The notes: generated from the letters alone by a model not told the origin. A DNA stretch of 64,000 nt from Candidatus Thorarchaeota archaeon (GCA_046482545.1 JAWOEX010000021.1:1-64000); one strand, 5' to 3'. Shown: positions 33,190 through 35,448, counted from the stretch's first letter. Numbers and translations are program-made.

Positions 33190-33909
33190 TCATCCGCCAG
33201 GTTGTTTCAGGACAAAATCATGCCATTGTCGGGATGTATCAGTTCCACGCATTCTTTCCATGCGTACCTGATGAACAGGACGGTCATCAGAATCGTCAAC
33301 TCTGAACCTGAGAACGGCATCTACGAGATAGGAGAAGGTGGCATACGTTTTTTCATCATGTACACCTTCTTCGAGAATGAACATGATGCTATGAGAATTC
33401 TGGGTAACTCGACCACTTATTCTTTGCACGGAACCGGGCATTTTGGTAGCAGATGAGTTCAGTATTAGGGTTGAAAGACTGTCAACAATCACTCTTGCAC
33501 ACACTAAATCATCAAGGACATCAGAAAGCACAATCCCAAGTTCGCTAATATCATCCACTTTTGAGAGTGTACGTGCAGTACCCGTTTTTGGGGCCCCCAT
33601 CCGTTCTGAATAACCATCGATAAAGACCAACTGTCCATTACTCTCGCATTTTTCAACTGGCCATCCATGACGGCTCATATCATTACGAATCACACGAGGT
33701 GATACATCGGTTGTAACAAAGACACCAGGAAAACCTAGATTCAACCCCTCAGCCAGAAACGCCTCTGCGTAAGTGGTTTTTCCAGAACCTATAGGACCAA
33801 GTAGCATGTATGAGACCTGCGTAAGCTGACCAAACTGGACCAAATCCCCAATCATTGGCTTCACCGTTGTCGGTTCGCCATTGCAAGAGTCTATTACATC
33901 TTCGGACAT
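33190..33909 (-). CDS. Single-domain KaiC/RAD55-like ATPase (CII-like, catalytic EE replaced)
   Basis: GPIGSGKT, VTTDVS, VIVDSLS, FSYLVDAV, RMRG. Confidence 0.85.
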   Translation of the reverse strand: MSEDVIDSCNGEPTTVKPMIGDLVQFGQLTQVSYMLLGPIGSGKTTYAEAFLAEGLNLGFPGVFVTTDVSPRVIRNDMSRHGWPVEKCESNGQLVFIDGYSERMGAPKTGTARTLSKVDDISELGIVLSDVLDDLVCARVIVDSLSTLILNSSATKMPGSVQRISGRVTQNSHSIMFILEEGVHDEKTYATFSYLVDAVLRFRVDDSDDRPVHQVRMERMRGTDTSRQWHDFVLKQPGG

Positions 33910-33919
33910 GAATTATCAC

Positions 33920-34666
33920 CTAGCCTTGACCTGCGATTTCACCAGGCCACACACGGATACCGTCACTAGTAATACGCATTGAGTGGATTCGAGAGCTATG
34001 TTTGGATCCTCTTAGCTTGAGCACCTCTATTGAACGCGATCTGGATGTATCACTCACTTTCTCATAATAAAGGACTATGACTCCAGAAGCCAAGAAAGCC
34101 TCGATATCAAAGACACCTAGACCATCATGATGCGCAGGGATTTCGCTTGTCAAAAGAAGCGTTGCTCCTGTACGAGTGATAGCTGCGCAGAGCTTGAAAA
34201 ACTCCTCTCGCAGGATTTCTTGGCTCTTGAATTTGTAAGCCATGATAGACAGTGTATCGATAACTACACGCTTGGCACCAATCTTTCTAATATGGTTCAG
34301 AATTATAGCTTCTAATCCTGATAAATCAAAACTTGGATACTCCCCGATTGGTACAGGTGAACGCTCCTTTGTAGGTGATAAGTCAACAATCGATAGCATA
34401 CCTTCTTCCTCTAGATTCTTCAGATTCATACCGAATCGTCTCAAGTTTCTTCGTATCATTTTTGGTTGTTCTTCCAAGGTAACAAGAACACCTGGTTCAC
34501 CGTACTCAGTTGCACCATTGTAAAGAAATTGATTTGCCAAGATAGTCTTTCCGGTTCCAGCTTTACCAGCAACCAGAATAGTATCCCCTCTTGGAAAACC
34601 ACCTTCAATCAATTCGTCCAAGCCGGGTATTCCCGTTTTCACCCGCTCAATTTCAAAATCACTCAT
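33920..34666 (-). CDS. Single-domain KaiC-like ATPase (CI-like)
   Basis: TGIPGLDELIEGG, GKAGTGKT, TLEE, RVVIDT, LLTSE, IEAFLASGVI, KLRG. Confidence 0.92.
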   Translation of the reverse strand: MSDFEIERVKTGIPGLDELIEGGFPRGDTILVAGKAGTGKTILANQFLYNGATEYGEPGVLVTLEEQPKMIRRNLRRFGMNLKNLEEEGMLSIVDLSPTKERSPVPIGEYPSFDLSGLEAIILNHIRKIGAKRVVIDTLSIMAYKFKSQEILREEFFKLCAAITRTGATLLLTSEIPAHHDGLGVFDIEAFLASGVIVLYYEKVSDTSRSRSIEVLKLRGSKHSSRIHSMRITSDGIRVWPGEIAGQG

Positions 34667-34989
34667 CCGGTACCACCTCTCATGGATACCTTAGCTCCAA
34701 GTATCATCTTCATCACCATTTCAGGCTCAGGAATGCCTGTTACCGACGTGCCAGCAATCATTATAGTTGGCAGGGCAAACACTCCATATTCCTCCGCCGC
34801 CTCAGGATTCTTTTTTACATCTATTATCCGCATCTTGAAAGATTCAGAACTGAAATCAGCAATAGTCTCACGTACTACCTCTTCAGCTCTTGGACAAAAG
34901 GCGCAATCATCTGACTTGAACAGCACAATTTCAATAGGAGTTAACTGTCTCTCTTCTGAATTTTCTATGCTCTTCGCTTTCTCGCCCAA
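34663..34989 (-). CDS. Thioredoxin-fold protein with CxxC, KaiB-like sequence
   Basis: CAFC and IIDVKKNPEAAEEYGVFALPTI; stop overlaps the KaiC start (ATGA). Confidence 0.85.
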   Translation of the reverse strand: MGEKAKSIENSEERQLTPIEIVLFKSDDCAFCPRAEEVVRETIADFSSESFKMRIIDVKKNPEAAEEYGVFALPTIMIAGTSVTGIPEPEMVMKMILGAKVSMRGGTG

Positions 34990-35061
34990 TCGACTGCACT
35001 CCTGAACCTAAGCGCCGGTATGATGTCTGTGATGCTAAGCCAATTGAATCTTTTGTGCTTG

Positions 35062-35448
35062 TCACCGCCCTTTTCCTAACACGTTCTTAATACGTGTGCC
35101 CCCCTTCCCCAAAGGTCGCAGATGATATCGAACCGTCCGCGGCATGACAGCAGCCAGAACCAGGTCATCTTGATGTGCTAGATCGAGCTTTTTGAAAACG
35201 GCCTTTCCAGCTGTGCATCTCACATTGATATCATTGAGTTCACCCAGAGAAAGCTCCTCCCGCATTCGTTCAACCGTGGAAGCCACGTATCCTGACATAG
35301 CGGCAATAACGTTCTTATTGATATTTGGAGCAGTCGCTGAGGCGATAAGAAGACCATCGTCTCTGGCCAGTATACTTGCATAGAAACCGCCTTCGCGATT
35401 CATGTCTTCAAGAATTTCCTCTAGGGCAGAGTAGTCGGGACGTTCCAT
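35062..35448 (-). CDS. Roadblock/LC7 (MglB-like) protein
   Basis: SILARDDGLLIAS and IAAMS motifs; about 128 aa. Confidence 0.88.
   Translation of the reverse strand: MERPDYSALEEILEDMNREGGFYASILARDDGLLIASATAPNINKNVIAAMSGYVASTVERMREELSLGELNDINVRCTAGKAVFKKLDLAHQDDLVLAAVMPRTVRYHLRPLGKGGTRIKNVLGKGR

What the first reader, a model, noticed from the sequence alone, without database searches (positions are those of the whole stretch)
33190..35448. KaiB-like redoxin and a split KaiC (CI-like gene then CII-like gene) in one run with a roadblock protein
Seen: minus-strand order is roadblock, then a 108-aa thioredoxin-fold protein, then ATPase 1 (ATGA overlap), then ATPase 2 (10-nt gap), then an alpha-solenoid. 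The small protein reads IIDVKKNPEAAEEYGVFALPTI, close to cyanobacterial KaiB as I recall it ([22 protein letters not shown]), but it keeps a CAFC redox motif that KaiB lacks. ATPase 1 looks like KaiC CI: catalytic TLEE, IEAFLASGVI versus CI VEEFVSDNV, and a KLRG finger. ATPase 2 has FSYLVDAV at the position of the CII phosphosite ISTITDTI, and its catalytic EE is replaced by DV. Known: fold-switched KaiB adopts the thioredoxin fold and binds KaiC CI; roadblock proteins regulate small GTPases. Inference: a redox-gated KaiBC-type switch or timer built from two half-KaiC genes, with output to the neighbouring Rab-like GTPase module. I do not know of this wiring being described.
Basis: partly seen in the sequence, partly recalled or inferred. 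Interest (0 to 1): 0.85.

Follow-up and report, generated by a model that had tools for sequence, protein, structure and literature searches.

The report
Thioredoxin docking on archaeal KaiC switch
In Thorarchaeota, archaeal relatives of eukaryotes, a small thioredoxin is encoded just ahead of one active and one degenerate clock-family (KaiC) ATPase, beside a GTPase regulator, and probably docks where the clock protein KaiB docks; this looks like an untested signalling switch, not a split clock.

Summary
The genes are real and the order roadblock, thioredoxin, ATPase 1, ATPase 2 holds in 21/21 Thorarchaeota-order loci. The small protein is a CxxC thioredoxin, not a KaiB member. ATPase 2 is a degenerate single-domain KaiC-like protein, not a CII half (profile: PH0284 100 bits, CI 56-60, CII 25), so 'split KaiC' is not supported, though not formally rejected (AU p 0.084). 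ATPase 1 keeps the KaiC B-loop residues that bind KaiB and SasA. A complex model puts the thioredoxin on that loop (0.76 vs best control 0.00; may be recalled from solved KaiB-CI structures). The loop motif occurs in 26/26 Asgard KaiCs beside a thioredoxin-fold gene and 0/18 others. Jordarchaeales/Freyarchaeum carry the same part types with a degenerate KaiC fused to a GTPase plus a roadblock, which supports GTPase wiring; their thioredoxin lacks cysteines, so redox gating is optional. The KaiC/KaiB-like thioredoxin link in archaea was noted in 2016 (PMC4858521), and this scan found the module before in other Thorarchaeota genomes. Verdict: new variant of a known kind; a switch, not a timer.

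The parts
35062..35457 (-). Roadblock/LC7 protein, with a family-specific conserved Cys81
   Evidence: Pfam Robl_LC7 23.5 bits, cut-off 23; weak PDB roadblock hits; Cys81 in 20/21 orthologues, 0/8 paralogues in this genome
34663..34989 (-). CxxC thioredoxin-fold protein (MJ0307-like), predicted B-loop ligand of ATPase 1
   Evidence: Thioredoxin_3 32.2 bits, KaiB Pfam 27.7; TIGR00411 50.1 vs KaiB TIGR02654 16.9; C29, C32 and P74 invariant in 63/63; thioredoxin fold in AF2 model; complex model
33920..34666 (-). ATPase 1: intact single-domain KaiC-like ATPase with CI-type B-loop (F113-D114 = KaiC F122-D123)
   Evidence: Pfam PF06745 242 bits; 178 bits to CI vs 82 to CII; Walker A, E65-E66, S112-L118 and K217/R219 invariant in 55/55
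33190..33909 (-). ATPase 2: degenerate single-domain KaiC-like protein; keeps Walker A lysine, Walker B Asp and arginine finger, EE replaced by DV, Ser at the S431 position
   Evidence: Pfam PF06745 106 bits plus DUF7504; profile best to PH0284; conservation; tree
30819..33116 (-). 765-aa all-helical TPR-like solenoid; lineage-specific accessory, absent from the sister-family locus
   Evidence: AF2 model; Atlas features; synteny
35635..36189 (+). Rab-like small GTPase, close relative of crystallised Thor-Rab; candidate output, divergently transcribed
   Evidence: Pfam Ras; 7EZB E 3e-82; directly adjacent in 16/19 family loci and 28/30 thioredoxin-centred loci

Best explanation
A KaiC-type signalling switch of Asgard archaea. 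ATPase 1 is the working ATPase. A dedicated thioredoxin-fold protein docks non-covalently on its B-loop, the same site and the same face that fold-switched KaiB and the SasA N-domain use on KaiC CI, and so reads or holds its nucleotide state. ATPase 2 is a slow or non-hydrolysing partner that keeps nucleotide-binding residues and the arginine finger, and probably co-assembles with ATPase 1 as adaptor or output subunit. The roadblock passes the state on to a small GTPase, here most likely the divergent Thor-Rab. SHOWN: anatomy, conservation, motif co-occurrence, fusions in relatives. MODELLED: the docking (about 0.7). INFERRED: ATPase 1/2 co-assembly (about 0.6), GTPase output (about 0.45), control of docking by the CxxC redox state or a relay to roadblock Cys81 (about 0.35). 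It is a switch, not an oscillator.
For: Order kept in 21/21 loci, including a sister family. B-loop S112-L118 invariant in 55/55 and aligned with KaiC F122/D123, which are needed for KaiB and SasA binding (10.1101/2020.06.17.158394). Complex model: score 0.76, best of 3 controls 0.00; the mark was reached by 58/80 solved and 2/110 mismatched pairs; runs agree in at least 99% of contacts, partner pLDDT at least 86; contacts centre on F113-L115 and the thioredoxin's C-terminal half, with strand beta2 free, as described for 5JWO (PMC6378743). Thioredoxin-fold gene abuts a KaiC-like gene in Atabeyarchaeia, a second Heimdallarchaeota-labelled family, Heimdallarchaeaceae (12/15 loci), Freyarchaeum and Jordarchaeales. 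Loop motif [FY]xL[SND][GPA][LI] in 26/26 such KaiCs, 0/18 non-adjacent ones, including paralogues in the same genomes. Degenerate KaiC fused to a small GTPase and followed by a roadblock in 11/11 genomes of two families; Rag-like GTPase follows the pair in Atabeyarchaeia. Single fusions: thioredoxin-degenerate KaiC, thioredoxin-roadblock.
Against: Like complexes are solved (5JWO, 6X61, 8FWJ), so the model may be memory, and its controls were unrelated proteins, not ordinary thioredoxins. The loop motif was defined after seeing the data and kin are not independent (about seven family groups; tree unresolved). Within Thorarchaeota the flanking housekeeping genes are just as syntenic, so synteny there says little about the GTPase. 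The GTPase differs by lineage (Rab-like, Rag-like, MglA-like), and one Thor locus lacks the Rab (L044). The two KaiCs flanking the thioredoxin-KaiC fusion lack the motif. ATPase 1 has no invariant cysteine. No biochemical data.
Confidence: 0.55

Rival explanations
1. One reading: a split KaiC. ATPase 1 and ATPase 2 are CI and CII halves that stack as two rings, S193 cycles in phosphorylation, and a redox-gated KaiB-like protein makes an hourglass timer.
For: S193 aligns with S431 and is invariant in 20/20; ATPase 1 as sister of CI is not rejected (AU p 0.46) and ATPase 2 with CII is not formally rejected (p 0.084, log-likelihood 22.5 lower); B-loop docking; archaeal KaiC homologues can autophosphorylate (PMC5520375).
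Against: ATPase 2 profile scores PH0284 100 bits, CI 56-60, CII 25; CII domains form a group that excludes it (97-95% SH-aLRT); Tyr or Phe at the T432 position; EE lost; the serine is missing from other degenerate partners; no fused ATPase 1-2 form among the best longer hits, which reach only 33-44% identity; KaiA not found in a 98.9% complete genome.
Confidence: 0.1
2. Redox-independent adaptor: the thioredoxin docks on the B-loop as a purely structural subunit (as thioredoxin does on T7 DNA polymerase, from memory), and its CxxC is kept for another job or as a relic.
For: Jordarchaeales and Freyarchaeum partners, and true KaiB, have no CxxC yet sit beside KaiCs with the loop motif; ATPase 1 offers no invariant cysteine.
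Against: C29 and C32 are invariant in 63/63 and kept in three other families; they lie in the modelled interface; the roadblock has a family-specific cysteine.
Confidence: 0.25
3. Ordinary neighbours: a housekeeping thioredoxin and two generic archaeal KaiC-like ATPases share a slowly rearranging chromosome segment, without physical or functional coupling.
For: Best sequence matches are ordinary archaeal thioredoxins (1FO5 E 9e-23); long-range synteny covers unrelated genes; KaiC-linked thioredoxins are not one resolved clade.
Against: Overlapping or near-overlapping stop/start; recurrence in several Asgard families with different gene orders; motif co-occurrence 26/26 vs 0/18; fusions; passing complex model.
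Confidence: 0.1

Closest known systems
[quoted passage not shown]
   Same: Thioredoxin fold (Z 12.9, rmsd 1.9 over 82 residues to 5JWR_D, tied with ordinary thioredoxins); conserved F-D loop on the ATPase; same modelled interface
   Different: Partner keeps CxxC and fails KaiB family cut-offs; ATPase is single-domain; no CII, no KaiA; no evidence of fold switching
[quoted passage not shown]
   Same: Single-domain KaiC-like ATPase, inactivated KaiC partner, thioredoxin-family neighbour
   Different: The passage read gives no B-loop analysis, no CxxC retention, no roadblock or Rab link, no Asgard case; arCOG membership of these proteins was not tested; the 2017 paper may say more
Single-domain KaiC-like PH0284 (2DR3), PH0186 (2ZTS), ArlH/FlaH
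   Same: Best solved matches for ATPase 2 and good matches for ATPase 1
   Different: No thioredoxin partner described in what I read; ATPase 1 scores below all these equivalog cut-offs
MglA/MglB GTPase-roadblock switch and Thor-Rab (7EZB; Tran 2024, PMC10933270)
   Same: Roadblock beside a small GTPase; the neighbour is a close Thor-Rab relative
   Different: GTPase is Rab-like and divergent; the paper does not mention KaiC and says GTPase-regulator pairs are hard to read from gene layout in MK-D1
MJ0307-type archaeal thioredoxin (1FO5)
   Same: Closest solved sequence; CxxC and cis-Pro loop
   Different: 50 bits against a cut-off of 92.75; own subfamily confined to one order

Membership tests
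KaiB | Reaches curated KaiB model cut-offs | tested here: not met
   TIGR02654 16.9 vs 145.3, NF006798 17.2 vs 110; Pfam KaiB 27.7 vs 27 over only positions 11-55 of 82, below Thioredoxin_3
KaiB | No redox CxxC | tested here: not met
   C29 and C32 invariant in 63/63
KaiB | Metamorphic: ground-state fold that switches to thioredoxin fold | tested here: inconclusive
   AF2 gives only the thioredoxin topology; a second state cannot be excluded this way
KaiB | Binds the KaiC CI B-loop | tested here: inconclusive
   Model passes, 0.76 vs 0.00, but may be recalled from solved complexes
KaiB | Encoded with a full-length two-domain KaiC | tested here: not met
   Only single-domain genes here; a third KaiC-like match is cut by a contig end; rule from PMC5520375
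Thioredoxin superfamily (MJ0307-like) | Thioredoxin fold with CxxC at helix 1 and cis-Pro loop | tested here: met
Thioredoxin superfamily (MJ0307-like) | Disulfide reductase activity, reduced by thioredoxin reductase | not testable with these tools
   TrxR-like genes exist in the genome, just under the cut-off
Clock KaiC (CI-CII) | Two tandem domains in one chain | tested here: not met
   Separate genes in 21/21 loci; NF006799 211 vs 408
Clock KaiC (CI-CII) | CI with catalytic EE, arginine finger and B-loop F-D | tested here: met
   ATPase 1
Clock KaiC (CI-CII) | Second domain descends from CII | tested here: inconclusive
   Profile and best tree say no; AU test does not reject it, p 0.084
Clock KaiC (CI-CII) | S431 and T432 sites plus catalytic Glu in the second domain | tested here: not met
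   Ser kept, Tyr/Phe at T432, EE replaced by DV
Clock KaiC (CI-CII) | Slow, temperature-compensated phosphorylation cycle | not testable with these tools
   needs biochemistry
Archaeal single-domain KaiC-like ATPases | One PF06745 domain of about 240 aa with Walker A/B and arginine finger | tested here: met
   Both ATPases
MglA/MglB module | Roadblock protein | tested here: met
   Pfam 23.5 vs 23, marginal
MglA/MglB module | Co-transcribed MglA-type GTPase | tested here: not met
   Neighbour is Rab-like and divergent; an MglA-like domain is fused to the degenerate KaiC only in Jordarchaeales/Freyarchaeum
MglA/MglB module | Roadblock acts as GAP | not testable with these tools
   needs an assay

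The most novel reading that the evidence does not exclude
A redox-active thioredoxin gates a single-domain KaiC ATPase through the KaiB site, and the state is passed through the degenerate KaiC and a cysteine-bearing roadblock to a Rab-like GTPase. Asgard archaea would then hold a living series from CxxC thioredoxin with single-domain KaiC, through cysteine-less partners, to true KaiB with two-domain KaiC, showing how KaiB arose, and would name an upstream regulator for Thor-Rab.
Probability: 0.22. Interest if true: 0.85.

Novelty: new variant of a known kind. Interest (0 to 1): 0.5.

Why it matters
It gives a four-protein, in vitro testable case for two open questions: whether KaiB's docking on the KaiC B-loop began with an ordinary redox thioredoxin, and what controls the eukaryote-like small GTPases of Asgard archaea, whose regulators are hard to assign from gene order (PMC10933270). 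The Rab-like neighbour already has a crystallised close relative. The value is tempered because the KaiC/KaiB-like thioredoxin association was already noted and nothing here is shown biochemically.

Tried and rejected
Genome-collection and metagenome scans with the thioredoxin gave only unrelated thioredoxins without KaiC neighbours; plasmid search gave three weak haloarchaeal hits. RNA-library contigs from salt-lake samples cover the region in short low-depth patches, cannot show transcription or an operon, and are not used. Bacterial-type promoter/terminator scan was at chance level. Thioredoxin tree (89 columns) is unresolved and places neither monophyly nor a link to KaiB. Fold search cannot separate fold-switched KaiB from ordinary thioredoxins. 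The thioredoxin-degenerate KaiC fusion P0478 was not found in 251 Asgard genomes with that query; its host is unknown. The careful ATPase tree did not finish; quick trees were used. Makarova 2017 and Tseng 2017 are not held. The idea that the thioredoxin reduces a disulfide in ATPase 1 was dropped: no invariant cysteine. ATPase 1 with ATPase 2, and roadblock with Rab, were not modelled (one complex job only).

Full report
OBSERVATION. The minus strand carries a roadblock protein (35062-35457), a 108-aa thioredoxin-fold protein (34663-34989), ATPase 1 (33920-34666, ATGA overlap), ATPase 2 (33190-33909, 10-nt gap) and a 765-aa protein (30819-33116). The last is all-helical in a confident model and TPR-like by features. 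A Rab-like GTPase starts divergently at 35635 and is a close relative of crystallised Thor-Rab. Homologue names place the genome in Thorarchaeota.

CONSERVATION. The order roadblock, thioredoxin, ATPase 1, ATPase 2 holds in the window and 20 fetched loci, one from a sister family. The solenoid is missing from the sister-family locus. The Rab is directly adjacent in 16 of 19 family loci, separated by one gene in one, absent in one and beyond a contig end in one; in the sister family it is co-oriented. Flanking housekeeping genes are equally syntenic inside the family, so this alone does not tie the Rab to the module. Close orthologues of the thioredoxin and ATPase 1 stop at the order boundary.

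THE SMALL PROTEIN IS A THIOREDOXIN, NOT KaiB. It scores 32.2 bits on Thioredoxin_3 and 27.7 on Pfam KaiB over half the profile; 50.1 on the MJ0307 model against 16.9 on the KaiB equivalog. Its profile's best solved match is 1FO5. C29, C32 and P74 are invariant in 63 sequences. The model has thioredoxin topology, and fold search ties ordinary thioredoxins with fold-switched KaiB.

ATPASE 1 HAS THE KaiB SITE. It matches CI better than CII (178 vs 82 bits) and keeps the catalytic pair and arginine finger. Residues 112-118 are invariant in 55 sequences, and F113-D114 align with KaiC F122-D123, which mutagenesis shows are needed for KaiB and SasA binding (10.1101/2020.06.17.158394). A complex model scores 0.76 against a best control of 0.00; the mark was reached by 58 of 80 solved and 2 of 110 mismatched pairs; runs agree in at least 99% of contacts and partner pLDDT is at least 86. 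Contacts join F113-L115 to the thioredoxin's A72-P74 loop, C-terminal half and CxxC region, leaving strand beta2 free, as described for KaiB-CI (PMC6378743). Because like complexes are solved and the controls were unrelated proteins, this shows likeness, not binding.

ATPASE 2 IS NOT A CII HALF. Its profile scores the single-domain PH0284 at 100 bits, CI at 56-60 and CII at 25. In quick trees CII domains group without it, and it falls among long-branched degenerate Asgard KaiC-like proteins. Forcing it onto CII costs 22.5 log-likelihood units but is not rejected (p 0.084); ATPase 1 as sister of CI costs 0.5 (p 0.46). S193 sits at the S431 position and is invariant, but the T432 position is aromatic and other degenerate partners lack the serine. 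It keeps the Walker A lysine, Walker B aspartate, an aspartate at the first catalytic position and both finger arginines, so it may bind nucleotide and complete a neighbour's site (inference). KaiA was not found.

BEYOND THORARCHAEOTA. A thioredoxin-fold gene abuts a KaiC-like gene in several other Asgard families: Atabeyarchaeia (CxxC, then KaiC, then a Rag-like GTPase); a family labelled Heimdallarchaeota (CxxC, KaiC, degenerate KaiC); Heimdallarchaeaceae (two-domain KaiC-like, then CxxC; 12 of 15 loci); and Freyarchaeum and Jordarchaeales (cysteine-less thioredoxin, KaiC, degenerate KaiC fused to a small GTPase, roadblock, second degenerate KaiC; fusion in 11 of 11 genomes). One genome has a true kaiB-kaiC pair. 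The loop motif is in 26 of 26 thioredoxin-adjacent KaiCs and 0 of 18 others, including paralogues in the same genomes; the motif was set after seeing the data and the rows are kin. Single fusions join the thioredoxin domain to a degenerate KaiC, a roadblock, V4R domains and a PAS histidine kinase; the KaiCs flanking the first of these lack the motif.

MECHANISM. Most likely the thioredoxin docks on the B-loop and reads or holds the nucleotide state of ATPase 1; ATPase 2 is a co-assembling adaptor; the roadblock couples the state to a small GTPase. Docking is modelled, the rest inferred. Redox gating is possible, since the cysteines are invariant, lie in the modelled interface, and the roadblock has a cysteine found in 20 of 21 orthologues and none of 8 paralogues. 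It is not required, since cysteine-less partners exist and ATPase 1 has no invariant cysteine. Nothing suggests an oscillator.

PRIOR KNOWLEDGE. Makarova 2016 states that in many archaeal genomes arCOG01174 KaiC genes are associated with a KaiB-like component of the thioredoxin family (PMC4858521); inactivated KaiC domains are also described (PMC5847659). The Thor-Rab paper does not mention KaiC, and a search for KaiC with small GTPase and roadblock gave one unrelated review. Makarova 2017 could not be read. This scan has reported the same module in other Thorarchaeota genomes and the Jordarchaeales operon separately; those notes are not independent evidence.

VERDICT. Observation confirmed, interpretation partly supported, new variant of a known kind, interest 0.5.

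Noticed in passing
window 28750-30822 (+): EF-2/EF-G-like GTPase convergent with the solenoid gene, 4-nt overlap; conserved beside the module even in the sister family. Probably the known second archaeal EF-2 paralogue (from memory).
   Followed up: partly
window 23860-26311 (-): Ribonucleotide-reductase-like gene (recognised by eye as anaerobic type) preceded by a 100-aa CxxC redoxin.
   Followed up: no
window 36208-39309: WD40 propeller, a 407-aa protein without Pfam match that is lost in several relatives, and a second Rab-like GTPase.
   Followed up: partly
own genome C20:198571, C9:163332, C28:228283, C20:237105: Four more small thioredoxin-fold paralogues, one with a single cysteine, none beside a KaiC gene; natural negative controls, or further ligands of the same loop.
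   Followed up: partly
own genome C23:9-353: End of a third KaiC-like gene cut by the contig edge.
   Followed up: no
P0382, P0375, P0540: Asgard PAS histidine kinases with an internal thioredoxin domain of this type, an architecture that recalls SasA.
   Followed up: partly
P0477, L118:5001-6458: Jordarchaeales protein with a CxxC thioredoxin fused to two V4R domains.
   Followed up: partly
L145-L158: Heimdallarchaeaceae two-domain KaiC-like protein with a degenerate second domain and intact B-loop, followed within about 10 nt by a CxxC thioredoxin.
   Followed up: partly
L161:4713-6437: A canonical kaiB-kaiC pair with an S-T site in one Promethearchaeati genome.
   Followed up: no
L116:4433-6497: Two-domain KaiC most similar to ATPase 1 among long hits, preceded by a 198-aa protein with a weak KaiB-like domain.
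   Followed up: partly
L163, L164: Tandem arrays of two to three small thioredoxins, some having lost CxxC, in one Asgard family.
   Followed up: no
P0242-P0260: Proteins of about 710-730 aa with three tandem KaiC-like domains.
   Followed up: no
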